32,000 bases of DNA from Candidatus Brockarchaeota archaeon (GCA_017601145.1 JAFNIV010000010.1:6950-38949), one strand, 5' to 3'; shown: positions 1,297-32,000, counted from the first letter of the stretch. Notes: a model not told the origin generated them from the letters alone. Program-made: numbers and translations.

Positions 1297-1455
1297 AGTG
1301 AACTACCCCTCGCTATCGCAAGGAGCTTCCTGCTTCAACGATGGAGCTTGCTGGTATTTCTACCAGTAGAGGCTTCGTCTCAGCAGGCGAATCAGGGCTA
1401 TCCCATCCCCTCATTTTTATTCGGCAAGCAGATATCCAATCCCTATAGGGATTTT
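1297..1455 (-). ncRNA. Putative TnpB omega-RNA (reRNA) scaffold overlapping the tnpB 3' end; the guide would be read from flank left of 1297
   Basis: By analogy with characterised IS605 elements, the omega-RNA spans the tnpB 3' end and the RE. The region is locally G+C-rich. Hairpins: 1306-1325 (G-U pairs form only on the minus strand), 1351-1366 (ctggta-tttc-taccag, a GAAA loop on the minus strand) and the perfect palindrome aatccctatagggatt at 1438-1453. The 5' limit is a guess. Confidence 0.4.
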
Positions 1456-4492: not shown

Positions 4493-4501
4493 AAAAATAG
4501 A

Positions 4502-5329
4502 ATGTCTGTTACAAGAGAAAAGCCTGTTGTATCAAAAATTCTGCAAAAGAATATGCTTGAGCTACTATCTAACGGAATAAGGATAGATAAAAGAAAGCTT
4601 GATGAATATAGAAAAATAAGCTACCAAGTAGGGATAATTGAAAAAGCAGATGGATCAGCACTACTTAGCTTAGGTGAAACTATGGTTCTTGTTGGAGTAA
4701 AAGTTGAGTTAGGGCAACCTTTTGAAGATACCCCAGATCAAGGAGTTTTAGTTGTTAATGCAGAACTTCTTCCTTTAGCTTCTCAAACTTTTGAGCCTGG
4801 ACCACCTGATGAAAGAGCAATAGCATTGGCAAGGTACGTCGATAGAAGCATAAGAGAGTCGAATACTGTTGACTTAAAATCACTGACAATAGTCCAAGGA
4901 AAGATTTGCTATGTAGTTTATGTAGACGTCTATGTGTTAGATTATGGAGGGAACTTAGTAGATGCATCAGTTCTGGCAGCCGTGAAAGCCCTAGAGAATA
5001 CAAAAATTAAGAAATATGAACTAGATGAAAATGGAAAAATTATGAAAACTGAGAAAGTCGAAAGTCTAAAACTCAATGATTTTCCAGTTTCCATAACCTT
5101 TGGGATAATAAACAATAAATATTTTGTAGATCCAAGCTTGGAAGAAGAGCAAGCTTGTGATACTTTTCTAACTTTTACCTATACGAAGTCTGGAAACATA
5201 TGTGCTGTTATGAAAAATGAGCAAGGCTTAATTGCCCCTGCTCAAGTAATCGAGATGATGGAACTTGGATGGAAGAAAGCGAAAGAAATAAGTAGCCTTA
5301 TGTTAGGAGGACAGAAAGGAAATGACTAA
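4502..5329 (+). CDS. rrp42: Exosome subunit Rrp42 (RNase PH-like, non-catalytic)
   Basis: GIRIDKRKLDEYRKISYQVG ... ADGSALLSLGETMVLVGVK. The 275-aa length and the position after rrp41 also fit. Confidence 0.9.
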   Translation: MSVTREKPVVSKILQKNMLELLSNGIRIDKRKLDEYRKISYQVGIIEKADGSALLSLGETMVLVGVKVELGQPFEDTPDQGVLVVNAELLPLASQTFEPGPPDERAIALARYVDRSIRESNTVDLKSLTIVQGKICYVVYVDVYVLDYGGNLVDASVLAAVKALENTKIKKYELDENGKIMKTEKVESLKLNDFPVSITFGIINNKYFVDPSLEEEQACDTFLTFTYTKSGNICAVMKNEQGLIAPAQVIEMMELGWKKAKEISSLMLGGQKGND

Positions 5330-11207: not shown

Positions 11208-14200
11208 TTAGCTACTAGGTAAGTCAACAAATATGTCGATTACTCCAGTACCAGCCTTTATTTCTTCTCCTGCAAGCACTCTTTCTGTCATTCCTTTCAT
11301 ATAGTCAGTTTCGCCCATTATCGCACCATCAACTAGTGTAGGAACTGTCCTTTCAAAAGCAGCTTTTGCTAAGATGCTAACTTTCTCACCTGACAAACCA
11401 TGTCTTCCAATTTGTCTCAATCTTCCATTTGCAGTCATTGCAGAAGCAACTAGTGATATATGCCTTATATCAACATCTAAACCTTGCTCTTCAAGAGTAC
11501 TCTTTATTTCTCTTATTAGAGCTGTTCTTGCCGCTTCTATTCCTAGAACTTCTTGTATTTCCATAATGTTGTTAGTGTACACTCTTGATGGATCTACTTC
11601 AGGAAGCTTAGTCACCTCCATCAAGTTTGAGCCTTCAGTCTTAATTATCCATTCATCACCCTCTTTTTCAACTGAGGCCCTTGTTATTGACGGAACTCCA
11701 GAAATTGGAATTAGTTTTAGTTTCTCAACAGAAGCAGAAAAGTCTAAGTTAGTTGCTTCTCTTTCTTCTTTTAGTTTAACCAAAATTACGTTACTTCTTT
11801 TCTTTGAAAACTTTGGATTCTTAAATCCGGCCAAACTTAGTGCCTTAACAATATCGCTTCTTTTTAACCCAGCTTCTTGTAACGCTTCATCAGAAAGCAC
11901 TATTAGTGCTAGATTTCTAAGATGAAGTACTCTTATTTCTGTTGATACAAACTCTAGAGTTTTATAAACCAGTTTTCTTGCAACTTTTAAAGCTTCTTCT
12001 CTAGACTTTGAGTATTCTGGCTTCAAATAAATCTTCATTATAGGAGTTTTTGGAGTCCTATGAACGTCAAGGAGTTCTATTAGCCTAGGTAATCCTAGAG
12101 TTACGTTTGCTTCCCTAACACCAGCGTAGTGGAAGGTTCTGAGAGTCATTTGAGTTCCAGGTTCTCCTATCGATTGAGCAGCAACTATACCAACACTTTC
12201 TCCAGGATCAGCTATTGTTTCTTCGTATTTCTTAACTATTTCTCTTATAACTTTTTCAATATCTTCTTCAGCTATACCATATGTCTTTATTTCATTCTTT
12301 AGTTTATTAACTAAGATCTTAGGCAACATCCTCGAATATTTACTTAATATAGAGTCCAACTTTTCATCAGAAACTTCAGTTTTAGTTTTTAAGTTTAGAG
12401 ACTCAACTATTATATTAAAGTAAACTTCAAGTGGAAAGACCCCATGAAAAGTTTTTGATGGATCTATTCCATCGTCACCATACTTAAACTCAACTATATT
12501 ACCATATGGATCTCTTACTGTTCCATCATACTCTACTTTTAATGTTTCTAAGGCATGTATTAATCTCCTTTGTAGATAACCACTTTGCTGAGTTCTAACT
12601 GCAGTATCAACGAGAGATTCTCTACCACCCATTGCATGATAGAAGAATTCTGTTGGAGTCAAACCAACTAAGTAACTTGATCTAATAAAGCCTCTTGCTG
12701 TTGCTCCAAGGTCACCTCTCCTGAAGTGAGGTAATGGTCGACCAATATAACCTCTCGAAATTCTCTTTCCATGAAGAGATTGAGGACCAAGAGATGCGCA
12801 TATATGACCTAAATTTAAGTCTGAGCCTCTGGCTCCCGTTCTCGTCATGATAACTGCGTTGTTATTCATTCCAAGAGAGTTACTTGCAATTTCTCCTGTT
12901 CTAGTTCTTATTTCAGAAAGCTTATCCATTATGTAAGCTTCTAAGGAATCTTCTTCACTTTTTCCAGGTATCCTTTCGAGTTTTCTACTTCTAAAATCTT
13001 CTATAATTTTGTTAACCTCTGGTTCTGCAGTATTAAGTAGATCGTCTATTTCTTTCTTTGACTCTTCTGGTAGAAAGAGCTCGCTGTAAAGCATAGTGAA
13101 CCCGCGAAGTTGTAAGAATTTTATAACCATCCTAGAAAGAGACCTTAAAAAGTTGTGCGCAACTTCATTACCATACCTTAAAATTAGTTCGTGCAGTATA
13201 GTTCCAGCTTTCTCAGAGCCTATTGTTGCTTGATCTATTACTCCTTTTTCAAGAATACCATTTTTTACAACTACAAACCCTTCATTTGGGCAGTTATTTT
13301 CGTCACACTCTTTGCAGTTTGCGCACACTTTTGCCTTTCCTCTATATACGAAATCCTTTGGTAAAAGCAAGCTGAATGCCTGCTTTCCACTCCAAAGAGG
13401 TTCGGGCTCCTTTACAGCTGGTTCTGGAGGATCTTCATAAATTCCTGCTGCTGCCATGAGAAGTAGAAAATCTTTTTTCGTAAGATATGTATCCTTTCTT
13501 GTCATAAGGTATGCACCAGTTATTAGATCTCTGAGAGCTCCTATTATTGGAGCACCATACCTTGGAGTTATGAAGTTCTTATTAACCTCTAAAAGCTCCT
13601 TAGTTTCAGCTACTGCTTCTGTATTCTGGGGAACATGAAGGTTCATTTCATCTCCATCAAAATCTGCGTTGTATGGAGGACAAACTGAAGGATGAAGGCG
13701 CATTGTTCTCCCAGGGAGAACCTTAACTCTATGACCCATCATCGAGATCCTATGAAGAGAAGGTTGCCTATTGAAAATTACATAGTCACCATCCATCAAA
13801 TGGCGTTCTACAATGTAACCTTCAGAAATACTATTCGCAAACGCATTTAAGTCTTTTACAAAGTCTAATTTTATTCTAGCACCATCTGGCCTAATTACAT
13901 AAAGTGCACCAGGATACTTGTTAGGGCCATTCCTTATGAGACTGGCAAGCCTTTCTCTATTGAACGTGTTTACTCTTTCTGGAACTGAAAGAGCTTTTGC
14001 AATAGCTTCTGGAACACCAACCTCATCAACATCTAAGAAAGGATCTGGTGAAATAACAGTTCTAGCTGAAAAATCAACTCGTTTTCCTGAAAGATTCTTC
14101 CTGAAGCGACCTTCCTTTCCCTTTAACCTTTGAGTTAGTGTCTTTAGCACTTTACCAGTTCTGTGTCTTGAAGGAGGAATTCCACTTGCTTCATTATCTA

Positions 14201-15050
14201 GGTAGGTTGTAATATGGTACTGTAATAAGTTTTCGAATTCGCCAAGAATTACTGGATTTGCACCATTCTCTTTCCCCTCTTTCAACTTTTTAGCAGCCCT
14301 TATAATATCAACTAGCTTATGGGTTAAGTCATCTTCGGAGCGTTCACCGCTTTCTAAGACTATTGACGGTCTAACTTGAACTGGTGGAACTGGAAGAACC
14401 TCAAGGATCATCCATTCGGGCCTACTCGTTTCCGGATTAATTCCAAGAAGTTTTAAGTCTTCATTCGGAATTCTCTCAAACCTTTCTCTTATGGCAGAGG
14501 GGTTTATTCTACTTGTTGTTTTCTCTGGAGCTATTTCATAAAATTCTGTTGGCTTTGACCATTTTATAACATATTGAGAAGCACCACAGTGCGGGCAATT
14601 GCTCATCCTCTTTGCTTCTCTTATTATTTGAGAGTACAACCTTTCTGGAACAAAACCAAACTTTTCCTTATATTCTTCAATTTGTTTTTTGTACTCTTCG
14701 ATTCTATCCTGCGAAAGCAACAACCTACCACAAGAACGACAAGTGATTTGAAGAAGAGTATATATCTGTTTTGTGAATAAGTAGTTTACCATTGGCATTG
14801 GAAGTTCGATGTGCCCAAAGTGGCCTGGACACTTGGATGGAGGACTCCCACAAGTTTGACATCTTTGATTTGGTTCTATTGTTCCTAGCCTTAGATCCAT
14901 TACTCCGCCAGTAATTGGGGTTCCATCCTCATCGTATACTTCGTCAGTAAATATTTCTGCTGCAGAGTACCTTCTTATGAAGGTAGGATTAAGAATACCA
15001 AAGATTATAGAATCTATTGATTTTGCTTCGAGTTCAGAAGTTGAGCTCAT
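11208..15050 (-). CDS. rpoA: DNA-directed RNA polymerase subunit A, unsplit (A' and A'' regions in one 1280-aa ORF)
   Basis: N-terminal Zn motifs (CQTCGS...CPGHFGHIEL) and the catalytic NADFDGDEMNLH are A'-type. The trigger-loop/A''-type region AAQSIGEPGTQMTLRTFHYAGV follows in the same uninterrupted frame. Confidence 0.95.
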   Translation of the reverse strand: MSSTSELEAKSIDSIIFGILNPTFIRRYSAAEIFTDEVYDEDGTPITGGVMDLRLGTIEPNQRCQTCGSPPSKCPGHFGHIELPMPMVNYLFTKQIYTLLQITCRSCGRLLLSQDRIEEYKKQIEEYKEKFGFVPERLYSQIIREAKRMSNCPHCGASQYVIKWSKPTEFYEIAPEKTTSRINPSAIRERFERIPNEDLKLLGINPETSRPEWMILEVLPVPPVQVRPSIVLESGERSEDDLTHKLVDIIRAAKKLKEGKENGANPVILGEFENLLQYHITTYLDNEASGIPPSRHRTGKVLKTLTQRLKGKEGRFRKNLSGKRVDFSARTVISPDPFLDVDEVGVPEAIAKALSVPERVNTFNRERLASLIRNGPNKYPGALYVIRPDGARIKLDFVKDLNAFANSISEGYIVERHLMDGDYVIFNRQPSLHRISMMGHRVKVLPGRTMRLHPSVCPPYNADFDGDEMNLHVPQNTEAVAETKELLEVNKNFITPRYGAPIIGALRDLITGAYLMTRKDTYLTKKDFLLLMAAAGIYEDPPEPAVKEPEPLWSGKQAFSLLLPKDFVYRGKAKVCANCKECDENNCPNEGFVVVKNGILEKGVIDQATIGSEKAGTILHELILRYGNEVAHNFLRSLSRMVIKFLQLRGFTMLYSELFLPEESKKEIDDLLNTAEPEVNKIIEDFRSRKLERIPGKSEEDSLEAYIMDKLSEIRTRTGEIASNSLGMNNNAVIMTRTGARGSDLNLGHICASLGPQSLHGKRISRGYIGRPLPHFRRGDLGATARGFIRSSYLVGLTPTEFFYHAMGGRESLVDTAVRTQQSGYLQRRLIHALETLKVEYDGTVRDPYGNIVEFKYGDDGIDPSKTFHGVFPLEVYFNIIVESLNLKTKTEVSDEKLDSILSKYSRMLPKILVNKLKNEIKTYGIAEEDIEKVIREIVKKYEETIADPGESVGIVAAQSIGEPGTQMTLRTFHYAGVREANVTLGLPRLIELLDVHRTPKTPIMKIYLKPEYSKSREEALKVARKLVYKTLEFVSTEIRVLHLRNLALIVLSDEALQEAGLKRSDIVKALSLAGFKNPKFSKKRSNVILVKLKEEREATNLDFSASVEKLKLIPISGVPSITRASVEKEGDEWIIKTEGSNLMEVTKLPEVDPSRVYTNNIMEIQEVLGIEAARTALIREIKSTLEEQGLDVDIRHISLVASAMTANGRLRQIGRHGLSGEKVSILAKAAFERTVPTLVDGAIMGETDYMKGMTERVLAGEEIKAGTGVIDIFVDLPSS

Positions 15051-15053
15051 TTT

Positions 15054-18000
15054 TTACACCCTTTCTTTAAGCTTTATCTTTGGAAATATTCCTAAACTCA
15101 TTATTTCTTGAAGCAAGAGCTTAAAAGCATAAGAAACAGTTATTGCACTTATTTTTGCACTTTTTCCACATACTCTGCAAACATACTTTCTTTGCTTAGC
15201 ATCATAGTAAGCTAAAGAACCGCAATTGTCGCAAATATACACTGTTGTTTTATCAGATTCTTCTAGAAGCCTATCTTGAAGCAGCCTTGCAGCACCATGA
15301 CCTACTAAACAGTCACGTTCCATTTCTCCAAACCTTAATCCACCACCTCTTGCTCTTCCTTCAGTTGGTTGGTGTGTTAGCAGAGTAACTTGGCCTCTTG
15401 CTCTAGCATGTATCTTGTCTTTAACCATGTGATGTAACCTTTGGTAATAAACTATACCAACAAACACCTTAGTATGCAGTAGCTCACCAGTTTGTCCATT
15501 TATCATTACAAAATCACCGTAAGGATGAAAACCATGAGACTTTAGAATTTCATAGACTTGCTCAGGATCTTCGTGATCAAAAGAGTCACCGAACATTTGT
15601 CTTCCTTTTAAAGCACCAGCAATTCCAAAAAGAGATTCCAAAAAGTGAGCTACGGTCATCCTTGATGGAATTGCATGTGGATTAATTAAAGCATCAGGTA
15701 CTAAACCATCTTCTGTAAAAGGCATGTCTTCTTGCGGAACTATCATTCCAACGACTCCTTTTTGACCTGCTCTTGTTGCAAACTTGTCCCCTAGCTCAGG
15801 AATTCTTGTATCTCTTATTCTTACTTTTATGATTTTATTTTGTTCTTTGTCTTCTGTTAAGAGTATCTTGTCAACATAGCCACTATGAGAACTCTTAACT
15901 GCAATCGAAGTGTCTCTCCTGTATGAAGGTTGTCCCCAGACCTCTATTCTTTCTTCTAGAAATCTTGGAGGACTAGTTCTCCCAATGATTATATCGTTTC
16001 CAGTAACATAAGTTTCAGGAGAAACGATTCCATCTTCATCTAACTTTATGTAAGCTTCTTCACCCTTATAGCCTCTAACGTCGCTTTCAGGTTTTTGAAT
16101 TCTATCTTTTTCTCCAACAGGATAGAGCTTTGCTTCTGCTTCATATACGAAGTAAGTTGTGGACCTACCAAGGCCTCTTTCAACTGAAGCCTTGTTTAAA
16201 ACTAGAGCATCTTCCATGTTGTATGGATGGGAGAGAACTGCAACAATAAAGTTTTGTCCTATTGGGTTCTTACTTAGCCCAATTATTTCAGAAGTGGTTG
16301 TTGTAGTTATCGGAATTTGAGGATAAAGTAAGTAGTGTGAAGTTGTAGAAAAGTTCAATGGCAAAGAAGAAGTAGGATATCCAAGAGCTTGTTTTGCCAT
16401 AGCTCCTTCATATGTGTTTCTTGGAGATTGATTATGCTCAGCAAATGGAATTGATGAGCTTATTGCACCGAATATTGCTAAGGGTGAAATTTCAAGATGG
16501 GTTGTATGTAGACCAATATCGTCAAGATTAATTGCAATTAGAGCATTTTCTTCTTCTTCAGCATCTAAGTATTCTATAACACCCAAAGCTACGAGGTCAT
16601 CTATTGTAAGTTCTCCAGACTTAAGTTTCTCTATATGTTCTGGTTTAAGTTTCAATTGACCCTCTTCTACAATAAGTAGTGGCCTTCTTACTCTTCCAGC
16701 ATCAGTATTTATCACAACTTCTGTTTTTCTTTCCTTTTCTTTGCTTTTCTTTCTTGAAGTACCACCATAATTGTGTCTATAAAAACCAAAGTTTACTTGA
16801 TCAGAAATTTTGCCTCTCCTTCTTAAGCGAATAAGCTCCTTAAATATAGAGCGTCCTTCTTGGTGATATCCAACTAAGGTACCATTGACATAAATTTCAG
16901 CCCAACTCTTTGTAATTTCTTCGTTTGCTTTCTCTACTGGAATCATTCCTAGAGAATTTAAAATTCTTACAATTTCTTCTGGATTAGAAGTTGTAGAAAC
17001 TTGACAAAGTAAGCTTAGGTTCTTGACTAGCCCACAGTTACTACCTTCAGGAGATTCAGCAGGGTCGATTCGCCCCCACTGTGTAGGATGAAGGTCTCTA
17101 GCTTCAAAGTTCGATTGACTTCTGCTTAAAGTTGATTGAAGTCTTCTAAGGTGACTAACAGTTGAAAGATAGTTTGTTCTATCTAAGAGCTGAGAGACCC
17201 CAACCAAACGTCTACTCCAATTACCAGTGGCAATTGCATGATTGAGCAAATCTGTTATGAGTCTCGTGCTAACTAGGTTTCCAATGTGACGAGGGGTAGC
17301 TCGTTTTATATCAGCTCTTTGAAGCTGATGTTTTAGATCTCTAACCATCCTCCTAAATCCTTGCCTAAAAAGCTCAGCAATCAGCGGTCCTGCAAACCTT
17401 AGCCTTTTATTCTTGTAATGATCTTTGTCATCGGGTTTTCTCCATCCTAGCTTAACAGCTATTGCTCTTTCTGCCATCTTGCCAATGAAGTATGCTTTCT
17501 TAATCCTATCAGCCGGTTCTCTACCAATATGAGGCAACAGAACTTTATCAATTAAGTATTCAGCTCTTCTTATCCTAACTTCTTTCGGCTGACCATATGC
17601 TGCTCTTCCACCAATATAATCTAAGGCGGATTCTGTATCAAGAAAAGAAGAAGCCTCATCAAAAGATTTCATAAGATTCTCTTGGACTTCTATATATGAT
17701 GAAGTGATGTAAGCAATATCTTTATCTGTAGAAACACCTAATGCACGCATTAAAATTACATAAGGGATATCTTCGCCTATTCCAGGGAACCTAACTCTTA
17801 TTAGCTGCTTTTGAGAATCAAACCTAACTTCAACTTTTGTTCTGTAGCCAACTGTGGCTGAAAAAGTTCTAGAGATATATATTACTGAGCTTCCAACCTT
17901 TTTTCTTTCTGTAAATATTCTATTGGTAGCAAAATCTTCGACACCAACTATTACTCTTTCCGAACCATTTATTATGAAGTATCCTCCAGGATCTCTTGGA

Positions 18001-18443
18001 TCTTCACCAAATTTTATTAGTTCTTCTGGGGAAAGATTACTTAGTCTACACGCTGAAGACTTAACCATTATAGGGAAGTCCCCTATCTTTATAGTTCCTT
18101 CCTGCATTAACTTTTCATTTTTATACTCAGAAAACTTTAGATTAATTGGTGCAGAGTAAGTAAGATTTCTTAGCCTTGCATCTATAGGATAAACGGAAGT
18201 TTGAGCTCCAGAAGCTTCTATAACTGAAGGTTGCTCCAAGGAAACCCCAGAAAAGACAACCCTATGCTTTAAGTCTGGTAAAGTTATGTTTATTTCTCCA
18301 ACTTCTTGAACAATCTTGTTTAAGTCTGAAGTTAGAAGTTCGTTGTAGGAGTCTATATGGTGTTGAGCTATTCCTGCATTTCTTACAAGTAATTCATAAA
18401 GATACTTGAGGTCTTCAGGCTTAACAGAATATGCTTCCATCAC
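15054..18443 (-). CDS. rpoB: DNA-directed RNA polymerase subunit B (unsplit)
   Basis: 1129 aa with GDKFATRAGQKGV, GGLRFGEMERDCL and the C-terminal Zn ribbon CDNCGS...CRVCG. Confidence 0.95.
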   Translation of the reverse strand: MMEAYSVKPEDLKYLYELLVRNAGIAQHHIDSYNELLTSDLNKIVQEVGEINITLPDLKHRVVFSGVSLEQPSVIEASGAQTSVYPIDARLRNLTYSAPINLKFSEYKNEKLMQEGTIKIGDFPIMVKSSACRLSNLSPEELIKFGEDPRDPGGYFIINGSERVIVGVEDFATNRIFTERKKVGSSVIYISRTFSATVGYRTKVEVRFDSQKQLIRVRFPGIGEDIPYVILMRALGVSTDKDIAYITSSYIEVQENLMKSFDEASSFLDTESALDYIGGRAAYGQPKEVRIRRAEYLIDKVLLPHIGREPADRIKKAYFIGKMAERAIAVKLGWRKPDDKDHYKNKRLRFAGPLIAELFRQGFRRMVRDLKHQLQRADIKRATPRHIGNLVSTRLITDLLNHAIATGNWSRRLVGVSQLLDRTNYLSTVSHLRRLQSTLSRSQSNFEARDLHPTQWGRIDPAESPEGSNCGLVKNLSLLCQVSTTSNPEEIVRILNSLGMIPVEKANEEITKSWAEIYVNGTLVGYHQEGRSIFKELIRLRRRGKISDQVNFGFYRHNYGGTSRKKSKEKERKTEVVINTDAGRVRRPLLIVEEGQLKLKPEHIEKLKSGELTIDDLVALGVIEYLDAEEEENALIAINLDDIGLHTTHLEISPLAIFGAISSSIPFAEHNQSPRNTYEGAMAKQALGYPTSSLPLNFSTTSHYLLYPQIPITTTTTSEIIGLSKNPIGQNFIVAVLSHPYNMEDALVLNKASVERGLGRSTTYFVYEAEAKLYPVGEKDRIQKPESDVRGYKGEEAYIKLDEDGIVSPETYVTGNDIIIGRTSPPRFLEERIEVWGQPSYRRDTSIAVKSSHSGYVDKILLTEDKEQNKIIKVRIRDTRIPELGDKFATRAGQKGVVGMIVPQEDMPFTEDGLVPDALINPHAIPSRMTVAHFLESLFGIAGALKGRQMFGDSFDHEDPEQVYEILKSHGFHPYGDFVMINGQTGELLHTKVFVGIVYYQRLHHMVKDKIHARARGQVTLLTHQPTEGRARGGGLRFGEMERDCLVGHGAARLLQDRLLEESDKTTVYICDNCGSLAYYDAKQRKYVCRVCGKSAKISAITVSYAFKLLLQEIMSLGIFPKIKLKERV

Positions 18444-18787: not shown

Positions 18788-20263
18788 ATGAGGATAGAAA
18801 AAAACATTGACTTAAAAAATAAAATAAATGTTTTTATCCATATTTTCTTCCTTTTCGGGGGATTGTACGACGTAATAATTGGAGGGGCTGGACCAGCGGG
18901 AATATTTGCAGCTCTAGAATTCATAAGGCAAGCAGAAGATAAGAAAGACCTTAAAGTATTAGTTTTAGATATGGGGCCCGATGTAGAAAGAAGGTACTGT
19001 CCCTCAAGAGAATTGCATAAAACATGCATAAAATGCCCTATTTGTACTTTGCAAAGTGGATGGGGAGGTGCTGGAACATTTAGTGATGGTAAAATAACTT
19101 TAACGCCAAACGTAGGAGGTTGGTTAGCTGAACTTATTGGAAGTGAAGAACTTACAAAGATACTAAAAGATGTCGATAAATACTTTTTAGATTTTGGAGC
19201 TCCTAAAGAAATATACGGAGATGATGAAAACAAATTCGAATATTGGGATAAAAAAGCGAAACTTTCAGACCTTAAGCTTGAGAAGAACATTCTGAGACAC
19301 ATGGGCTCAGATATGAGCAAGCAAGTTCTCGTTAACATTAAGAACTTTGTTTCTAAGCATGTAGAGATTAAGTTAAGAACCAAGATTGAAGAAGTTGTTG
19401 TTGAAGGAAACAGAGTAAGAGGAGTAAAGCTAAAGTCTGGAGAAGTGGTAAATGCTAAAGCAGTTCTATTGGCGCCAGGTAGGATAGGTGCACAGTGGCT
19501 AAGTTCTGAAGCTAAGAGACTTAGAATAAAGACAAACAGAAACCCAGTAGATCTGGGAGTAAGAGTTGAGTTACCCTATGAAGTTATGGCACAGATAACA
19601 GACGATCTTTATGAACCAAAACTAAAATTTTTCTCAAAAACTTTTGACGATTACATAAGAACATTCTGTGTTAATCCGAGGGGAGAGGTAATTTCAGAGT
19701 TCTATGAAGACGTTGTTACTGTAAATGGGCATAGCTTGAAGAATGGATCTTCGGGCAATACGAACTTTGCAATACTAGTAAGCACTCATTTCACCGAACC
19801 TTTTAATGATCCAATAGCTTTTGGAAAGTCAATTGCTAAACTTGCAAATTTAATATCTAACGGTGTAATTGTTCAAAGGCTTTCAGATCTTCTTCAAGGA
19901 AGGAGAAGTACAAAAGAAAGAATAAGCAAGAGCATAATAGAACCTACTCTTAAGGATGCAACTCCAGGAGACCTAAGCTTTGTTCTTCCTCATAGAATAC
20001 TTACAGATATAATAGAAATGCTGAGAGCTTTAGATAGGCTTACTCCAGGTGTTGTTTCACAAAACACTTTACTTTATGGTGTTGAAGCAAAATTTTATTC
20101 CTCAAGAATAGAGACAGATGAACATCTACAAACCAGTGTAAAGGGTCTTTTTGTAGCAGGAGATGGAGCAGGAATAACTAGAGGAATAGCTCAAGCTGCC
20201 GCTTCTGGAATGCATGCTGCAAGAAGTATAACAGAACTATTGAGCAACAATGTCCTTGACTAA
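18788..20263 (+). CDS. FAD-dependent oxidoreductase (COG2509-like NAD(FAD)-utilizing dehydrogenase)
   Basis: Rossmann motif YDVIIGGAGPAGIFAA and C-terminal GLFVAGDGAGITRGIAQAAASG. The first 25 codons look non-native. The in-frame TTG at 18863 (MYDVIIGGAG...) is the likelier start. Confidence 0.7.
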   Translation: MRIEKNIDLKNKINVFIHIFFLFGGLYDVIIGGAGPAGIFAALEFIRQAEDKKDLKVLVLDMGPDVERRYCPSRELHKTCIKCPICTLQSGWGGAGTFSDGKITLTPNVGGWLAELIGSEELTKILKDVDKYFLDFGAPKEIYGDDENKFEYWDKKAKLSDLKLEKNILRHMGSDMSKQVLVNIKNFVSKHVEIKLRTKIEEVVVEGNRVRGVKLKSGEVVNAKAVLLAPGRIGAQWLSSEAKRLRIKTNRNPVDLGVRVELPYEVMAQITDDLYEPKLKFFSKTFDDYIRTFCVNPRGEVISEFYEDVVTVNGHSLKNGSSGNTNFAILVSTHFTEPFNDPIAFGKSIAKLANLISNGVIVQRLSDLLQGRRSTKERISKSIIEPTLKDATPGDLSFVLPHRILTDIIEMLRALDRLTPGVVSQNTLLYGVEAKFYSSRIETDEHLQTSVKGLFVAGDGAGITRGIAQAAASGMHAARSITELLSNNVLD

Positions 20264-20953
20264 GCCTAAGTTATACCCATCCAAAGTAGTTACGTTCATA
20301 TCTTCTATGCTTATGTTAAGCATCCTAAGAGCAGGCATTCTAAAGTTATCGTTGTTAACAGTTAGATAGCCTACGTAATTATTAAAGGCAGGCATTATTA
20401 TAACTTTTGGCTTCTTATTTATACGCTCTAACCACACTTGAATTGTATAACTGTAACCGGAGTTGTCAGTTATCTTTACCACTGGGTGGATATGACCCAA
20501 GATTATGTAATCTTTGCTTAAAGCTTCTTTTGGTAGCCTTGCATGTCCATGAGAAATCCAAGAGCCATTGACTTCAAAACCCATTACGTTATGTACTTTT
20601 ACTTTGCTTGGGAGAAGGCCAAGAATGTCACCATCATGATTTCCTGGAACTAAGTGAACTTCTTCCAAGTCTAAAAAAAGATTAAGAAAGTTTCTAGTTA
20701 CAACTAGAGATTCAAGTAAACTTATACCAGAAACCTTGTGTTTTAGATCGCCAGCAATGATTAGCTTTTTAAGCTTGTGAGTTTTAAGTAAGTTCAATAA
20801 CCTTTCTGAGAATTCAGAAGATTTTTCAGGAACGTTTATTCCTTTGTCTCTTAGTTCCTTCTCAAAACCAATATGAAGATCTGAAACAACTAAGTATTCG
20901 TTGTTTAGTATTAGCGCAGGCTCTCTAAACGTTTTTATTACTCCTTTGCTCAT
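20237..20953 (-). CDS. Calcineurin-like metallophosphoesterase (COG1407 / MPE-like, Mre11-related)
   Basis: The track ORF (to 21214) has an implausible 87-aa low-complexity extension overlapping the opposite-strand gene. Homology starts at the ATG at 20953: MSKGVIKTFREPALILNNEYLVVSDLHIGFE ... LIIAGDLKH ... LVPGNHD ... ISHGHA ... LGHIHP. Confidence 0.75.
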   Translation of the reverse strand: MSKGVIKTFREPALILNNEYLVVSDLHIGFEKELRDKGINVPEKSSEFSERLLNLLKTHKLKKLIIAGDLKHKVSGISLLESLVVTRNFLNLFLDLEEVHLVPGNHDGDILGLLPSKVKVHNVMGFEVNGSWISHGHARLPKEALSKDYIILGHIHPVVKITDNSGYSYTIQVWLERINKKPKVIIMPAFNNYVGYLTVNNDNFRMPALRMLNISIEDMNVTTLDGYNLGLVKDIVAQ

Positions 20954-20972
20954 AGTAGTGCTAAAGAACTGA

Positions 20973-21374
20973 ATGAGTAAGGAATTAAAGGATTTTGCTA
21001 GTCTATGTGAAAAGATAAGAGAAAGAGGTTTTCTAACGAGCAATGATAAGGAAAATTTACAGAAATTTTTTGGGGAAAGAGCAGAAAGGGCACTAGAACT
21101 TGTTTTTTTAAACAGAGTAAAGAAGTACAAGTTTATGCCCTCAAACATAACGTTTTGGGTCGTCGTTGGAAAAACTAACGAGTACCTAGTAATTCCTGAA
21201 AGTAATTTTTGCACGTGTGATGATTTTTTGTTCTCTTTCTTTAAAGGTGAGCAGCCTTTTTGTAGTCACTTAATTGCGCAGAGAATTGCTGAAGCTCTTG
21301 GAGAAATAGAGGAAATAGCAGAATCTGACGACTACTACACTTCTCTAATAGATGAGTTTGTCAGCATAAAATAA
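20973..21374 (+). CDS. SWIM-type zinc-finger protein
   Basis: CxC-x16-CxH pattern: FCTCDDFLFSFFKGEQPFCSHLIA. 133 aa, divergent from the phosphoesterase gene with a 19-bp spacer. Confidence 0.7.
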   Translation: MSKELKDFASLCEKIRERGFLTSNDKENLQKFFGERAERALELVFLNRVKKYKFMPSNITFWVVVGKTNEYLVIPESNFCTCDDFLFSFFKGEQPFCSHLIAQRIAEALGEIEEIAESDDYYTSLIDEFVSIK

Positions 21375-28693: not shown

Positions 28694-31015
28694 CTACTCT
28701 TGTCTTTCTATTGCGCTAGGCCTTATTTTTCCGTCAATAACTTCGTATACCCTTTCTCTTGATTCGAAAACATCAGTTATATGAGTAACAACCACGACTT
28801 GGTCGATATACTTCGTTAAATCTTCTCTCAATAAGTTAACGATAGATTGCCTTCTGTTATAATCAGAAGAAGAAAGTGGTTCATCTAAGATTAAGAACTT
28901 TGGGTAAGTACCTTTTGAAGATGGAAGTATTGAAAGAACAAAGGAAAGTCTCATGGCAAGCAAAAGCTGATCTACAGTCCCTCCACTGTATACATCTTTT
29001 CTTATAAACTTCTTAGCTTCAGGATCATAAACACTTATCTCAAAGTTTTCATCTATTTTTACAGCTTTATACTTTCCATTTGTTATCTTCGAAATAAGTA
29101 GGTTCATATTTCTTTCCATCCTTGGCCTAAAGGCGTTTCTAATTTCGTTTATAGATCTGTCTATAAGTTCAAGCGCGATATGGAGTATTTCTGCTCTATG
29201 TTTAAGTTTCTTTAGTTCTTCCTCAAGTTCATTAAGCCTTAACTTTAGTTTTTCTTCTTTACTTACTTCTTCTTCTAAACTTCTAAGTTGCTCTTCTAGT
29301 GTAGTTAAGCTCCCCCTGATTTTTCCTTCTTCTTGTAGGTAAGAAGAAAGTAAATTTTCAACCTTTTTCTGTGCTTCTTCTAGATTAGTTTTGTTCAAGC
29401 TCTCAAGGTCAATTTTTTCATTGTAGTTTACTAAAATTGTTTTAAAAAGCGTATTAAGTTCTGTTGCTCTTTCTCTATACTGTAAACTAAGCTTAGCTTT
29501 ATCTTCTATTTTTTTATCAAGTTCTTTCATCCTAGATATATCTGACATTGATTTTGCGTATGCTTCAGTGAATCCATTTTTAGATATAACTTTGTAGTAT
29601 GGATCAAGCAAGCTGTTTAGAGAGATTATTCTTTCATTTATTTCCTGTCTTTTTCTTTCAATGTCTTTTATTTCGTTCTCGACATCTTTCAACTTCTTTG
29701 AAGTTGTGTTATAGTTATCTATTTTTTGAAATATTATATTTAGTTCAGAAAGTAAAACATTTTCTTGCTTGTCTATTCTGTTTCTTCTTGTGTAGTATTC
29801 TCTTGTAATAAGAAGAGCCGAAGCAGCAAGAACAGCAACAGTAAATAAAGATGCTAACTTAAAGTTAAGTAATAAGCTTATTAAAGATGTTATTAAGGAT
29901 AACAACATAGTGCTGAAGAAGAATAAAACTTTTTTCTCTCTAATGAACTCGCTAAAGTTTTTGAGTTTCTGAATTTTCTTTAAGTTAAGTTGTATGTCTT
30001 CTTTTTTCTTATTTAGTTCAGTCAAGTTTATTCCTTCTACGTTTCTTTCTATTTCTATCTTCTTACTTGTTCTGCTAGCTAGTTCACTATCTAGTTGAGA
30101 AAGTTCAGTAATGCAACTTCTCATGTTTTCCATTGTTAACTTCAATCTTTGTTCTCCTCCAGAATTTTCTATTCTGTTCTTTAACTCTTCTAGGTTGGAT
30201 ATTTCTTCTTGAATTGAGTTTATTTGGGTCTCAATTTGTTTTAGCTCTTTGTCTATGTTCTTTGCCTTTACAAGAAGAGAAAGTTTCTCTTTCTCTTTTT
30301 TAAGACTTTGAGCCTCTTTTCCTACCTGCTCTAGTCTTTTTAAATAATTGTTCATGCTCTTTTTAATATTCTCTATATCTGTCTTTTTCTTGCTTATATC
30401 TTCAAGTTCTTTCTTTATAGGCTCAATCTCTAAGCTTATTTCTCTTATTTTTCCTCCTCCTCTTTGAGTGCCTTCAATTTCTTTTAGTTCATCATTTGTT
30501 AACTTCTTTACTTGATCCAAGAAATCAATGTTTAACAAACTGTTTATTAGTTGTTGTCTGTTTTGGTTTCCAAGTTCAATTAGTTTGCCAAGTTCTTTCT
30601 GGTTTACTACATTTGTTACCTCCACTTCTTTCCATCCAAGCCCACCTAAAAGTTTACTTAGCTCTTCATTTACTTTCTCAACCTTTAGCGCTATAAGCTT
30701 GTAGCTGTTTTCTTCTAGCTTAGTAAGCTTAGCTGAAGAACCTAAAGTTGTTATTTCTCTTTCTACAATGAATATGTTCCCAGAATCTTCAAACTCAAGC
30801 TTAACGTAAGCTCTTTTTTCCCCATAACTTATAGCTTCCTGAATCTTACTTCCAGTTCTAACTTTTCCAAAGAGTGCAAAAAGTATGGCTTCTATTATCG
30901 TTGATTTTCCAGCCTCATTTTCTCCAACAAGCACAGTTAGTCCGTTTTCAAAACTTATTTCTACATCAGTAAGCTTCCTAAAGTTCTTTACTTTAAGCTT
31001 CCTAAGAACCACCAT
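28694..31015 (-). CDS. Rad50/SbcC-like SMC-type ABC ATPase with a central predicted transmembrane hairpin in place of a zinc hook
   Basis: N-terminal Walker A GENEAGKST. C-terminal signature YSGGTVDQ, Walker B FLILDEPLSSSD and H-loop VVVTHITD. Long heptad-rich E/K arms flank aa 363-404, VLFFFSTMLLSLITSLISLLLNF-K-LASLFTVAVLAASALLIT (DNA 29804-29929), which is bounded by REKK and REYYTRRNR. The whole protein has a single Cys (C301). The start codon shares a base with the stop of the upstream nuclease gene (TAATG). Confidence 0.75.
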   Translation of the reverse strand: MVVLRKLKVKNFRKLTDVEISFENGLTVLVGENEAGKSTIIEAILFALFGKVRTGSKIQEAISYGEKRAYVKLEFEDSGNIFIVEREITTLGSSAKLTKLEENSYKLIALKVEKVNEELSKLLGGLGWKEVEVTNVVNQKELGKLIELGNQNRQQLINSLLNIDFLDQVKKLTNDELKEIEGTQRGGGKIREISLEIEPIKKELEDISKKKTDIENIKKSMNNYLKRLEQVGKEAQSLKKEKEKLSLLVKAKNIDKELKQIETQINSIQEEISNLEELKNRIENSGGEQRLKLTMENMRSCITELSQLDSELASRTSKKIEIERNVEGINLTELNKKKEDIQLNLKKIQKLKNFSEFIREKKVLFFFSTMLLSLITSLISLLLNFKLASLFTVAVLAASALLITREYYTRRNRIDKQENVLLSELNIIFQKIDNYNTTSKKLKDVENEIKDIERKRQEINERIISLNSLLDPYYKVISKNGFTEAYAKSMSDISRMKELDKKIEDKAKLSLQYRERATELNTLFKTILVNYNEKIDLESLNKTNLEEAQKKVENLLSSYLQEEGKIRGSLTTLEEQLRSLEEEVSKEEKLKLRLNELEEELKKLKHRAEILHIALELIDRSINEIRNAFRPRMERNMNLLISKITNGKYKAVKIDENFEISVYDPEAKKFIRKDVYSGGTVDQLLLAMRLSFVLSILPSSKGTYPKFLILDEPLSSSDYNRRQSIVNLLREDLTKYIDQVVVVTHITDVFESRERVYEVIDGKIRPSAIERQE

Positions 31016-32000
31016 TACTGCTGAGAAACCTCCTTAAGTTTAGAATCCAAATAGGATAAGGCTTCTTCAAGCATCTTCTTCTTTTCTTCATCTTTCTCTT
31101 CATTTATCTTCTGCCTTATAAAATCATAGAAAAATTCTATTGGAGTTTTATCTATATTGCTAACTTCATTCCCTTCTTCCTTTAGCACTAAGTCAGCATC
31201 ATTAATCTCAAGTAAAAAGAAGTACTTTTCCAAATTTCTAAGCAGTTCAACTTTATTATAGTACTGGAAAGTTTGAAAGTCAACTCTTCCCTTTAAATCT
31301 ACCCTAAGGATTAAGTTTTCATCTTTTAACTTAAGTATTTCGTTCTGAATATAGCTCTGAATATTTTTTTCGTTTGAACTGTTAATTTCCAGAGAAACTC
31401 TTTGCATTGGTCTAGTTTCTAGATTAATGAAAGTTTGCTTCTGTACTAAGTTGTCTTCAAGTTCAATAAGATAAAATCCTTTTTTATCTTCAGCCTCATC
31501 AAAAGTAAGTTTTTCTGTACTTCCAGGGTATATAATTGTAGTATTCCCTAAAACCTTTATCTCTGGTTTGTGTAAATGTCCAGCAGCAACGTAGTTAACA
31601 TACTTAGGAATCTTACTTGCTTTAACTATCGGCTCAAGTGCATATGGATACTTTTGTTTTACCCCAGTTATTGAATAGTGGAGCATTAATATGTTGAAGT
31701 CTCCCTCTTCAGGTATCTTTACATTCGATAAAGGATCATCTGAAGCACCAAAGTTATGGTTGAAGGATAGTCCACTTATTGTTAAGCTTAAATCCCCAAT
31801 CTTTAAATTTTCAGTTTCGACCTCTTCAGTAGAACCAAAAAACCTAGCGTATCCTGATTTCTCAAACAAGAGAAGAGGAGACTCTGCTTCTTCAACAGAC
31901 CTTGGCATGTCATGATTCCCTCCTATCATAAAAATCTTAGTTCCATTTGAAGTTAAATCTCTAAACCACTTCATCAAGCTACTTCTAGGTGGGTTTCTAG
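31015..32000 (-). CDS. Mre11/SbcD-like metallophosphoesterase nuclease (5' end beyond window; partial)
   Basis: FMIGGNHD, ILMLHYSITG, AAGHLHKPE and IIYPGSTEKLTFDE are calcineurin-like nuclease motifs III-VI. The frame stays open upstream of the track's TTG start (..RNPPRSSLMKWF) to the window edge, so motifs I-II should lie outside the window. Confidence 0.75.
   Translation of the reverse strand, partial: RNPPRSSLMKWFRDLTSNGTKIFMIGGNHDMPRSVEEAESPLLLFEKSGYARFFGSTEEVETENLKIGDLSLTISGLSFNHNFGASDDPLSNVKIPEEGDFNILMLHYSITGVKQKYPYALEPIVKASKIPKYVNYVAAGHLHKPEIKVLGNTTIIYPGSTEKLTFDEAEDKKGFYLIELEDNLVQKQTFINLETRPMQRVSLEINSSNEKNIQSYIQNEILKLKDENLILRVDLKGRVDFQTFQYYNKVELLRNLEKYFFLLEINDADLVLKEEGNEVSNIDKTPIEFFYDFIRQKINEEKDEEKKKMLEEALSYLDSKLKEVSQQ

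What the first reader, a model, noticed from the sequence alone, without database searches (positions are those of the whole stretch)
28694..32000. Mre11/SbcD-Rad50/SbcC-like pair in which the coiled-coil apex is a predicted membrane hairpin instead of a zinc hook
Canonical Rad50/SbcC proteins fold back on themselves, and the apex of the antiparallel coiled coil carries a CxxC zinc hook. This 773-aa ATPase has the head motifs and long charged heptad arms. Its exact midpoint (aa 363-404; DNA 29804-29929), however, is two hydrophobic helices separated by one Lys and flanked on both sides by Arg/Lys clusters (REKK ... REYYTRRNR). That is the signature of a helical hairpin with both ends cytoplasmic. 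The protein contains one cysteine in total and none near the apex. It is translationally coupled (TAATG overlap) to an Mre11/SbcD-like nuclease. A nuclease-ATPase DNA-end machine tethered to the membrane by its coiled-coil tip would be mechanistically distinct from hook-mediated dimerisation. Possible roles include envelope-associated DNA processing, defence against incoming DNA, DNA uptake or chromosome-membrane anchoring. I vaguely recall that the Bacillus subtilis SbcE/YhaN family may have a comparable central hydrophobic segment, but I cannot verify this here. No HerA/NurA genes are visible, though sequence upstream of the nuclease gene is outside the window.
Basis: partly seen in the sequence, partly recalled or inferred. 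Interest (0 to 1): 0.7.

Follow-up and report, generated by a model that had tools for sequence, protein, structure and literature searches.

The report
Hook-less Rad50 with membrane hairpin
This archaeal Mre11-Rad50-type DNA-end-processing gene pair has a Rad50 whose zinc hook is replaced by a conserved two-helix hydrophobic hairpin, which should embed the tip of its coiled coil in the cell membrane; the design turns out to be widespread (it includes Bacillus SbcE/YhaN) but is almost undescribed.

Summary
The 773-aa ORF (28694-31015, minus strand) is a Rad50/SbcC-superfamily ATPase. It is translationally coupled (TAATG) to an Mre11-like nuclease that is cut by the window end. Its exact midpoint (aa 363-404) is a 42-residue uncharged hydrophobic hairpin flanked by Lys/Arg, with no CxxC.

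This is a family trait, not chance:
- Among 120 homologues, 74 have a central hydrophobic apex and 44 have a central CxxC hook. None has both.
- 140 of the 143 closest cluster representatives not already examined have the hydrophobic apex.
- Lys/Arg is enriched about twofold on both flanks, which predicts an in/in hairpin.
- AlphaFold places a helix-turn-helix at residues 331-467, and Rad50 structures are the best fold matches.

Close archaeal relatives (Thermofilaceae, Bathyarchaeia, Asgard) carry the gene as the Rad50 slot of a nurA-herA-mre11-rad50 operon.

My best reading is a membrane-anchored Mre11-Rad50 machine whose intramembrane hairpin replaces the hook. Membrane insertion, the role of the apex, and whether a hook-type Rad50 coexists in the same genome remain untested.

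Verdict: a new, essentially undescribed variant of a known machine. Interest is moderately high.

The parts
28694..31015 (-). Rad50/SbcC-superfamily ATPase, 773 aa, hook-less, with a hydrophobic apex
   Evidence: ORF. Pfam AAA_23 5e-19, SMC_N, AAA_27. Best NCBIfam matches are archaeal Rad50 models at 1e-34, far below their cut-offs. The best Foldseek matches to the AF2 model are Rad50 structures 7zr1, 3auy, 3av0, 5dny and 3qf7.
30899..30925 (-). Walker A / P-loop (GENEAGKST, aa 31-39)
   Evidence: N33, E34, G36, K37, S38 and T39 are invariant in the 46-sequence alignment.
29804..29929 (-). Apical hydrophobic helical hairpin (aa 363-404): helix 1 about 363-382, turn NFKLA 383-387, helix 2 about 388-404
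   Evidence: Only region of the protein with KD > 1.6. AF2 gives helix 331-382, turn 383-387, helix 388-467. A 35-46-residue uncharged apex is conserved in the archaeal clade. Lys/Arg-rich flanks.
29930..30451 (-). N-terminal coiled-coil arm (aa 189-362)
   Evidence: AF2 long helices 189-282, 288-327 and 331-382. 41% charged, with heptad-like periodicity.
29084..29803 (-). C-terminal coiled-coil arm (aa 405-644)
   Evidence: AF2 helices 388-467, 481-530, 545-584 and 587-644. Periodicity 3.45-3.5, z = 4.4-5.5.
28967..28987 (-). ABC signature motif (SGGTVDQ, aa 677-683)
   Evidence: S677 and Q683 invariant, G679 and T680 nearly invariant.
28880..28897 (-). Walker B (FLILDE, aa 707-712), followed by the D-loop (D718) and H-loop (H745)
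   Evidence: D711 invariant and E712 nearly so in A1; D711, E712, D718 and H745 invariant in A2.
31015..32000 (-). Mre11/SbcD-like metallophosphoesterase nuclease, C-terminal about 327 aa. Roughly 60-70 N-terminal residues, including motifs I and II, lie beyond the window end.
   Evidence: Open frame to the window edge. Metallophos and Mre11_Sulfo 4e-23. GNHD, MLH and GHLH motifs align with full-length relatives that carry DNH and GDLFD. A relative matches solved Mre11 structures.
31013..31017 (-). TAATG stop/start overlap coupling the nuclease and ATPase genes
   Evidence: Sequence read directly.
31029..31035 (-). AAGGAGG Shine-Dalgarno-like motif, 13 nt upstream of the ATPase ATG
   Evidence: Sequence read directly.

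Best explanation
The two genes encode a membrane-anchored Mre11-Rad50 complex.

Shown: the ATPase has a complete Rad50-type ABC head, split by a long antiparallel coiled coil of about 170 residues per arm (about 25 nm). Its gene is co-translated with that of an Mre11-type nuclease.

Shown in sequence, inferred in function: where canonical Rad50 has the CxxC zinc hook, this protein has two hydrophobic helices of about 20 residues joined by a turn of about 5 residues. The arm helices continue directly into them.

Inferred topology: the hairpin inserts into the cytoplasmic membrane with both ends inside. The head-nuclease module then hangs about 25 nm into the cytoplasm on a stalk fixed at the membrane.

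Inferred role of the apex: the hairpins of the two Rad50 protomers associate laterally in the bilayer. This would give the constitutive apex dimerisation that the zinc hook normally supplies, and it would also localise the machine.

Inferred function: ATP-dependent recognition and nucleolytic processing of DNA ends, feeding HerA-NurA resection. This rests on the nurA-herA-mre11-rad50 operons of relatives and on the known role of the four proteins. A role on DNA entering at the membrane is possible by analogy with SbcE in Bacillus competence.
For: Identity of the proteins:
- Rad50 identity and motifs.
- Mre11 partner and gene coupling.

The apex as a selected feature:
- The apex is either hydrophobic or CxxC, never both: 74 versus 44 of 120 homologues, with 2 having neither.
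- All 65 full-length homologues of a Nitrososphaerales member have the hydrophobic apex.
- So do 140 of the 143 top 50%-identity cluster representatives not already examined, and none of them has a hook.
- The apex is the fastest-evolving part of the protein, yet it keeps its hydrophobicity. Identity to the orthologue is 45% in the apex against 90-93% in the heads, with mean KD of 2.0 and 2.3. This is what is expected of lipid-facing helices.

Topology:
- Positive-inside signal on both flanks: Lys/Arg 3.5 per 12 residues against a background of 1.65, and Asp/Glu 1.1 against 2.0, over 149 proteins.
- AF2 gives helix 331-382, turn 383-387, helix 388-467.

Context:
- nurA-herA-mre11-[this ATPase] operons occur in Thermofilaceae, Bathyarchaeia, Promethearchaeati, Thorarchaeota and unclassified archaea. 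HerA is also adjacent in Methanobacteriaceae.

Literature:
- The hook is a constitutive dimerisation module that can be exchanged for an SMC hinge (PMC6969161). A different apical dimeriser is therefore plausible.
Against: - No dedicated transmembrane predictor and no experiment were available. Membrane insertion rests on hydropathy, flank charges and conservation.
- AF2 confidence in the apex is only moderate (block means 55-76). A monomer model says nothing about a bilayer or about dimerisation.
- In the archaeal clade the uncharged apex is 35-46 residues. That is short for two full spans plus a loop, so a re-entrant (monotopic) hairpin is not excluded.
- SbcE-YFP was reported as discrete foci on nucleoids and at poles, not as a membrane stain, and the authors did not call the domain transmembrane.
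- HerA and NurA are not visible in this window, and they are absent upstream in some relatives (L004, L007, L009, L010).
- Small-xxx-small packing motifs are not consistently present in the hairpins, so hairpin-hairpin dimerisation is pure inference.
Confidence: 0.68

Rival explanations
1. The hydrophobic apex is not in the membrane. It is a buried, soluble oligomerisation core, for example a four-helix bundle formed by two hairpins, acting as a metal-free hook.
For: The hook's job is dimerisation and it can be replaced by other dimerisers. SbcE-YFP forms nucleoid-associated foci rather than an obvious membrane signal. The hairpins are short, at 35-46 residues.
Against: There are 35-46 consecutive residues with essentially no charge and mean KD about 2.0-2.3. 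Lys/Arg clusters directly abut both ends, across 149 proteins. The sequence drifts fast while hydrophobicity is kept, which is typical of lipid-exposed rather than tightly packed protein cores. The SbcE central domain is completely insoluble when expressed.
Confidence: 0.12
2. The pair is a defence or conflict system (Lamassu-, Gabija- or PARIS-like ABC ATPase plus nuclease) placed at the membrane to attack incoming foreign DNA. It is not a housekeeping repair machine.
For: PADLOC profiles for LmuB (1.5e-23), mad3, GajA and PtuA match the ATPase. A membrane location would suit interception of entering DNA. Gammaproteobacterial relatives lack a nuclease neighbour and may have other partners.
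Against: The PADLOC matches are the generic ABC/SMC head plus coiled coil, and the nuclease matches no PADLOC model. The best family and fold matches are Rad50. Relatives sit in the conserved nurA-herA-mre11-rad50 repair operon. The window neighbours are housekeeping genes: HDAC-like, phosphatase, PUA, RNA polymerase and exosome. No close homologues were found on plasmids or phages; only head-level matches below 32% identity.
Confidence: 0.1
3. The machine is specialised for DNA crossing the membrane, such as uptake, import or export of DNA or conjugation-like transfer. Break repair is secondary.
For: SbcE and SbcF localise to the DNA-entry pole in competent B. subtilis, and the sbcE mutant has reduced transformation. 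Rad50 and HerA-like genes are reported next to the archaeal Ted DNA-import genes in some Thermoproteales (PMC9905601).
Against: No pilus, VirB4/CedB-like or channel genes are conserved next to the archaeal loci examined. Only nurA, herA and mre11 recur. The sbcE transformation defect was described as mild, while double-strand-break phenotypes were clear. I did not test whether the Ted-linked Rad50 has this apex.
Confidence: 0.1
4. The central segment is an assembly, frameshift or annotation artefact.
For: None found.
Against: A single uninterrupted ORF. The same 42-residue segment occurs in an independent assembly at 79% overall identity. Equivalent segments are present in well over 250 homologues from many sources.
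Confidence: 0.01

Closest known systems
Canonical archaeal Mre11-Rad50, usually in an operon with HerA and NurA (for example P. furiosus, M. jannaschii, Sulfolobus)
   Same: ABC head with Walker A, Q-loop, signature, Walker B, D-loop and H-loop. Long antiparallel coiled coil. Adjacent, translationally coupled Mre11 nuclease with the phosphoesterase motifs. In relatives, the same four-gene nurA/herA/mre11/rad50 neighbourhood. Best sequence-family and fold matches.
   Different: No CxxC zinc hook; a hydrophobic two-helix hairpin occupies the apex. Scores lie far below the NCBIfam Rad50 cut-offs (119 bits against 700-1087). The protein is shorter than the Rad50 family models (773 aa against 872-895 model positions). 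Predicted to be membrane-tethered.
Bacillus subtilis SbcE (YhaN) with SbcF (YhaO)
   Same: SMC/SbcC-like ATPase lacking CxxC, with a hydrophobic central domain between two heptad arms, encoded next to an SbcD/Mre11-like nuclease (PMC2811018). YhaN-named Paenibacillus and Cohnella proteins and a Sediminibacillus homologue have the same tight hairpin with Arg/Lys flanks. Pfam AAA_27 (the YhaN-type N-domain) matches weakly.
   Different: SbcE is bacterial and longer (about 950-1100 aa), and no herA or nurA gene was found next to the one YhaN-type locus examined (Paenibacillus L073). Profile-profile alignment links only the C-terminal head and adjacent coil, at 19% identity. In a head-domain NJ tree the archaeal clade groups, weakly, with hook-type Rad50 rather than with Firmicute YhaN. 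The conserved proline reported in the SbcE central domain is absent here. The published description does not call the domain transmembrane.
E. coli SbcCD
   Same: Nuclease-ATPase pair of the same superfamily with an adjacent gene arrangement. The sbcc (2e-15) and SbcD (1.8e-11) models match.
   Different: SbcC has a zinc hook and is about 1050 aa. Similarity is lower than to archaeal Rad50.
Lamassu LmuB and other defence ABC/SMC-like ATPases
   Same: ABC head plus coiled-coil insertion; PADLOC LmuB 1.5e-23.
   Different: No LmuA- or LmuC-type partners. The partner here is Mre11-like, the context is a repair operon, and the apex is a membrane hairpin.

Membership tests
Rad50/SbcC family (ATPase subunit of the Mre11 complex) | Bipartite ABC ATPase head: Walker A, Q-loop, signature SGG, Walker B, D-loop, H-loop | tested here: met
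   GENEAGKST (31-39), Q139, SGG (677-679), LILDE (708-712), D718 and H745 are conserved in alignments. The best Foldseek matches of the model are Rad50 structures.
Rad50/SbcC family (ATPase subunit of the Mre11 complex) | Long antiparallel intramolecular coiled coil between the head halves | tested here: met
   AF2 long helices 189-382 and 388-644 with a single reversal at 383-387. Heptad-like periodicity. No dedicated coiled-coil predictor was run.
Rad50/SbcC family (ATPase subunit of the Mre11 complex) | CxxC zinc hook at the coiled-coil apex | tested here: not met
   Single Cys (C301) and no CxxC. The whole clade lacks it.
Rad50/SbcC family (ATPase subunit of the Mre11 complex) | Encoded next to, and working with, an Mre11/SbcD nuclease | tested here: met
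   Adjacency and TAATG coupling. The nuclease matches Mre11 models and structures. Physical interaction was not testable.
Rad50/SbcC family (ATPase subunit of the Mre11 complex) | Reaches the curated family score (NCBIfam Rad50 equivalogs) | tested here: not met
   Best score 119 bits against cut-offs of 700-1087.
SbcE/YhaN | SMC/SbcC-like ATPase without CxxC, with a hydrophobic central domain between the heptad arms | tested here: met
   YhaN-named proteins show the same architecture.
SbcE/YhaN | Adjacent SbcD-like nuclease (YhaO/SbcF) | tested here: met
   The same holds in Paenibacillus L073.
SbcE/YhaN | Sequence-level membership (closest clade, central domain alignable, conserved proline) | tested here: inconclusive
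   hhalign aligns only the C-terminal head (E 7e-33, 19% identity). The NJ head tree puts the archaeal clade (bootstrap 55) next to hook-type Rad50 (joint bootstrap 37), apart from Firmicute YhaN. There is no Pro in the query apex. The B. subtilis YhaN sequence itself could not be obtained.
Archaeal HerA-NurA-Mre11-Rad50 end-resection module | herA and nurA genes adjacent to mre11-rad50 | not testable with these tools
   The window ends inside the nuclease gene, and the orthologue contig L001 is also cut there. The feature is met in relatives L002, L003, L005, L006, L008, L018, L036 and L084 and not met in L004, L007, L009 and L010.
Integral membrane helical hairpin | Two hydrophobic segments long enough to span a bilayer, a short turn, and positive-inside flanks | tested here: met
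   KD up to 2.19. Helices of about 20 and about 17 residues. Lys/Arg enrichment on both flanks in 149 proteins.
Integral membrane helical hairpin | Experimentally or predictor-verified membrane insertion and topology | not testable with these tools
   No TMHMM, DeepTMHMM or experiment was available. Transmembrane versus re-entrant is unresolved.
Lamassu (LmuB) | LmuB with LmuA effector and LmuC partner in one operon | tested here: not met
   Only the generic ATPase match was found. The partner is Mre11-like, and no other PADLOC match was found for the neighbour.

The most novel reading that the evidence does not exclude
In several major archaeal lineages (Thermofilaceae, Bathyarchaeia, some Nitrososphaeria, Asgard groups, Methanobacteriaceae) the hairpin-apex protein is the only Rad50. 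If so, the supposedly universal zinc hook has been replaced by an intramembrane dimerising anchor, and Mre11-Rad50/HerA-NurA end resection is carried out by a machine physically tethered to the cell membrane. The bacterial SbcEF/YhaNO systems may have arrived at the same solution independently.
Probability: 0.35. Interest if true: 0.8.

Novelty: new variant of a known kind. Interest (0 to 1): 0.62.

Why it matters
The Rad50 zinc hook is treated as a universal and functionally essential feature of Mre11-Rad50 from phage to human. Here a large, conserved class of Rad50-type ATPases, sitting in the canonical archaeal repair operon, has swapped it for a membrane hairpin.

If the hairpin is membrane-embedded, three things follow:
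- It gives a natural experiment on what the apex is for: dimerisation, or reach and tethering.
- It implies that DNA-end processing can be anchored to the envelope in prokaryotes, which bears on repair, DNA uptake and chromosome-membrane contacts.
- It offers a structural explanation for the unexplained 'unique central domain' and the insolubility of B. subtilis SbcE.

The family includes Asgard members, so it also bears on the ancestry of the eukaryotic MRN complex.

Tried and rejected
- Literature. Seven full-text searches for a transmembrane or hook-less Rad50/SbcC found nothing beyond the 2009 SbcE paper. The ABC-ATPase classification by Krishnan et al. 2020 (PMC7544218), which might mention the family, is not held. 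Constantinesco 2004 is not held either. The SbcE supplement with the central-domain alignment is not held.
- B. subtilis YhaN sequence. I could not obtain it. A Priestia megaterium replicon hit that I hoped was YhaN turned out to be a herA-like + Mre11-like + hook-type (CPVC) Rad50-like cluster. I used YhaN-named Paenibacillus and Cohnella proteins and a Sediminibacillus homologue instead.
- AFDB Foldseek was unavailable.
- NCBIfam has no model for the hairpin class. None of five hairpin-type and four hook-type proteins reached a cut-off.
- Defence reading. PADLOC matches are generic head matches. Plasmid and phage collections hold only distant head-level matches.
- Cultured hosts. A search seeded with a Nitrososphaerales member returned only MAG proteins.
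- Head-domain NJ phylogeny with 100 bootstraps gave weak deep support (37-55%). Single versus multiple origin of the hairpin stays open.
- Small-xxx-small motif counts in the hairpins were inconsistent and are not used as evidence.
- No terminator-like site was found downstream of the ATPase gene.


Full report
OBSERVATION. The window carries an uninterrupted 773-codon ORF on the minus strand (28694-31015). Directly upstream is a second minus-strand ORF whose frame stays open to the window end. The two genes overlap by one base (TAATG, 31013-31017), and an AAGGAGG motif lies 13 nt before the ATPase start. Kyte-Doolittle 19-residue windows exceed 1.6 only for start positions 361-387 (peak 2.19). 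The best window elsewhere is 1.47, in the Walker B strand. Residues 363-404 (DNA 29804-29929, exactly as reported) read VLFFFSTMLLSLITSLISLLLNF-K-LASLFTVAVLAASALLIT, between REKK and REYYTRRNR, and are centred at 0.50 of the length. The protein has one cysteine (C301) and no CxxC. The arms are 38-41% charged and the apex 2%. Given 40% charged residues, a 42-residue stretch with at most one charge is expected about 1e-5 times per protein.

WHAT THE PROTEINS ARE. The ATPase matches Pfam AAA_23 (5e-19), SMC_N and AAA_27. Its best NCBIfam matches are the archaeal Rad50 equivalogs (1e-34 to 6e-28), but at 97-119 bits against cut-offs of 700-1087. Walker A, the Q-loop glutamine, the SGG signature, Walker B, and the D- and H-loops are conserved in alignments. 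An AlphaFold2 model (46-sequence alignment, mean pLDDT 79.8, pTM 0.54) gives a globular head made of both termini and long helices 189-382 and 388-644. The only chain reversal is at 383-387, so the arm helices run straight into the hydrophobic segments. Foldseek against the PDB returns Rad50 first: C. thermophilum 7zr1 at E 1e-22, then Smc5/6 chains and further Rad50 entries (M. jannaschii 3auy, 3av0, 5dny; T. maritima 3qf7). Hydrophobic periodicity of 3.4-3.5 residues is significant in most arm segments. The partner matches Metallophos and the Mre11_Sulfo (4e-23) and SbcD models. It aligns with full-length relatives that carry all the phosphoesterase motifs (DNH, GDLFD, GNHD, H, GHxH), and those relatives hit solved Mre11 structures. 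About 60-70 N-terminal residues of the nuclease lie outside the window.

THE APEX IS A SELECTED FAMILY FEATURE. Among the 120 best homologues, 74 have one or two strongly hydrophobic segments at relative position 0.4-0.57 and no central CxxC. Another 44 have a central CPxC-type hook and no hydrophobic segment. Two have neither, and none has both. Nearly all of the 80 GTDB loci found with a family profile carry the hydrophobic apex. All 65 full-length homologues of a Nitrososphaerales member do. In an exhaustive profile search of 1.84 billion cluster representatives, 140 of the 143 best clusters not already examined have it, and none has a hook. The 150th listed hit still had E = 4e-111, so the class is far larger than what was listed. 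In the archaeal clade the apex is a 35-46-residue uncharged block bounded directly by Lys/Arg. Over 149 proteins, the 12 residues on either side hold 3.5 Lys/Arg (background 1.65) and 1.1 Asp/Glu (background 2.0). This is a positive-inside signal on both sides, as required for a hairpin whose ends both return to a cytoplasmic coiled coil. Against its 79%-identical orthologue, the query is 90-93% identical in the heads, 70-75% in the arms, and only 45% in the apex. Mean hydropathy of the apex stays at 2.0-2.3, and the single turn residue flips from Lys to Glu. This is the pattern expected of lipid-facing helices with an exposed turn, and it rules out an assembly or frame artefact.

GENOMIC CONTEXT. 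The window itself shows only the nuclease-ATPase pair. Downstream lie convergent housekeeping genes: a DSP-type phosphatase, an HDAC-like gene, an AP-endonuclease-2/TIM-barrel gene and a PUA gene. This arrangement is syntenic with the orthologue contig. All 14 close archaeal relatives with enough sequence keep the mre11-like gene immediately upstream. Nine also have herA, and seven have the full nurA-herA-mre11-ATPase operon: two Thermofilaceae, Bathyarchaeia, Promethearchaeati, Thorarchaeota, an unclassified archaeon, and L002. An eighth such operon, on a Logan contig, was confirmed with precomputed Pfam labels (NurA, HerA/DUF87, HAS-barrel). Nitrososphaeria and two soil Bathyarchaeota loci have the pair only. 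So in many lineages the hairpin protein occupies the Rad50 slot of the canonical end-resection operon. Bacterial relatives (Clostridia, Chloroflexota, Limnocylindrales, Geobacter, Paenibacillus) usually pair with an SbcD-like gene. A gammaproteobacterial subgroup of 600-660 aa has two hydrophobic helices about 25 residues apart and no nuclease neighbour.

RELATION TO SbcE/YhaN. The 2009 paper on B. subtilis SbcE (YhaN) describes an SbcC-like protein that lacks CxxC. It has a 'unique central domain' whose first half is hydrophobic and which is completely insoluble when expressed. Its neighbour is the SbcD-like YhaO/SbcF. The mutant has double-strand-break repair and mild transformation phenotypes, and the protein forms polar foci in competent cells. 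The word transmembrane is not used. Homologues of a Paenibacillus family member are labelled 'Uncharacterized protein YhaN', 'YhaN AAA domain-containing' or 'YhaN family' by their sources. Of these, 96 of 120 have the central hydrophobic hairpin with Arg/Lys flanks, including a Sediminibacillus (Bacillaceae) protein. Orthology with the archaeal clade is not shown. Profile-profile comparison aligns only the C-terminal head and adjoining coil (E 7e-33, 19% identity). In a bootstrapped NJ tree of head domains, the 22-member archaeal hairpin clade (bootstrap 55) is sister to a 29-member hook-type Rad50 clade (bootstrap 71), with a joint bootstrap of only 37. Firmicute YhaN lies elsewhere. The hairpin apex may thus have arisen more than once, but the support is weak.

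MECHANISM.
- Shown: a Rad50-type head, a fold-back arm of about 174 residues (about 25 nm) on the N-side, a co-translated Mre11-type nuclease, and a conserved apolar hairpin with cationic flanks at the apex.
- Inferred: the hairpin inserts into the cytoplasmic membrane with both ends inside, so the nuclease-ATPase head hangs on a stalk from the membrane.
- Further inferred: the two hairpins of a Rad50 dimer associate in the bilayer and supply the constitutive apex dimerisation that the zinc hook normally provides. This is plausible because a hook can be functionally replaced by an unrelated SMC hinge (PMC6969161).
- Function, inferred from operons and from established knowledge of the HerA-NurA-Mre11-Rad50 system: ATP-dependent recognition and processing of DNA ends for resection.
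- Whether the anchor serves localisation, for example acting on DNA at the envelope as suggested by SbcE in competence, or is merely an alternative dimeriser is open.
- Caveats: no dedicated transmembrane predictor or experiment was available. Apex pLDDT is 55-76. At 35-46 residues a re-entrant hairpin is possible. SbcE-YFP foci were described on nucleoids and at poles, not as membrane staining.

RIVALS. A soluble hydrophobic dimerisation core is disfavoured by the length, the charge-free composition, the cationic flanks and the fast sequence drift. A defence system is disfavoured because the PADLOC matches (LmuB 1.5e-23, GajA, PtuA) are generic head matches, the nuclease has none, the context is a repair operon, and plasmids and phages hold no close relatives. 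A DNA-uptake specialisation is possible but unsupported by conserved neighbours. An artefact is excluded.

NOVELTY. Seven full-text searches found no description of a transmembrane or hook-less Rad50 beyond the SbcE paper. The most likely place for a prior computational mention (Krishnan et al. 2020) could not be read. Databases simply label these proteins 'AAA/SMC family ATPase' or 'exonuclease SbcC'. I therefore class it as a new, essentially undescribed variant of a known machine. It is widespread rather than unique to this window.

VERDICT. The finding is real and its interpretation is supported. Interest is moderately high (0.62). The most novel reading not excluded is that the hairpin protein is the sole Rad50 of several archaeal lineages, so that end resection there is membrane-tethered and the zinc hook is dispensable (probability about 0.35).

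Noticed in passing
window 11208-15050 (-) and 15054-18443 (-): RNA polymerase subunit A is one 1280-aa ORF containing Rpb1 domains 1-5, that is, an unsplit A'+A'' subunit. It lies next to an unsplit 1129-aa subunit B. From memory, an unsplit rpoA is unusual among archaea and is typical of only some TACK/Asgard-related lineages, so it could help place the organism.
   Followed up: partly
window 1313-2440 (-): IS605 OrfB/TnpB-like gene with an HTH_OrfB and a Cas12f1-like TNB domain.
   Followed up: no
window 3097-5329 (+): Exosome gene cluster: an Rrp4-like S1/KH protein and a downstream RNase PH-type subunit were identified by Pfam. An overlapping 243-aa ORF between them was not scanned.
   Followed up: no
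window 20237-21214 (-): A second calcineurin-like metallophosphoesterase (325 aa) that is not adjacent to any ABC/SMC ATPase.
   Followed up: no
loci L031, L033, L039, L048, L050, L053, L060, L081, L082: Gammaproteobacterial relatives (593-660 aa, including Thiodiazotropha symbionts) have two hydrophobic helices about 25 residues apart at the apex and no adjacent nuclease. A roughly 90-aa ORF sits immediately upstream in several. Their partner and function are unknown.
   Followed up: partly
proteins P0199, P0206, P0209, P0210, P0213, P0214, P0216-P0220, P0224, P0226, P0227, P0230, P0233, P0235, P0236, P0238 (about 1060-1210 aa; P0216 is a Caballeronia 'YhaN family protein'): A branch of YhaN-related ATPases has neither a zinc hook nor a hydrophobic apex, so it has a third, uncharacterised type of apex.
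   Followed up: no
L083 (Priestia megaterium pFDU301A, 783925-796344): A bacterial herA-like (DUF87) + Mre11-like + hook-type (CPVC) Rad50-like cluster on a 1.08-Mb replicon. It has no gene listed in the PLSDB table.
   Followed up: partly
L012, L014, L020 (Methanobacteriaceae) and P0014, P0017, P0018: Hairpin-type Rad50-like proteins of 1013-1308 aa with much longer arms. In the two loci with enough upstream sequence (L012, L020), herA and mre11 lie directly upstream. Arm length therefore varies about twofold within the hairpin class.
   Followed up: no
window aa 645-649 of the ATPase (DNA about 29069-29083) and homologues: A T-x-G-[KR]-Y motif (ITNGKYKAV) just before the C-terminal head. T645 and Y649 are invariant across the 46 hairpin-type sequences aligned, from archaea and bacteria, and the motif also appears in hook-type relatives. 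Its role is unknown to me.
   Followed up: no
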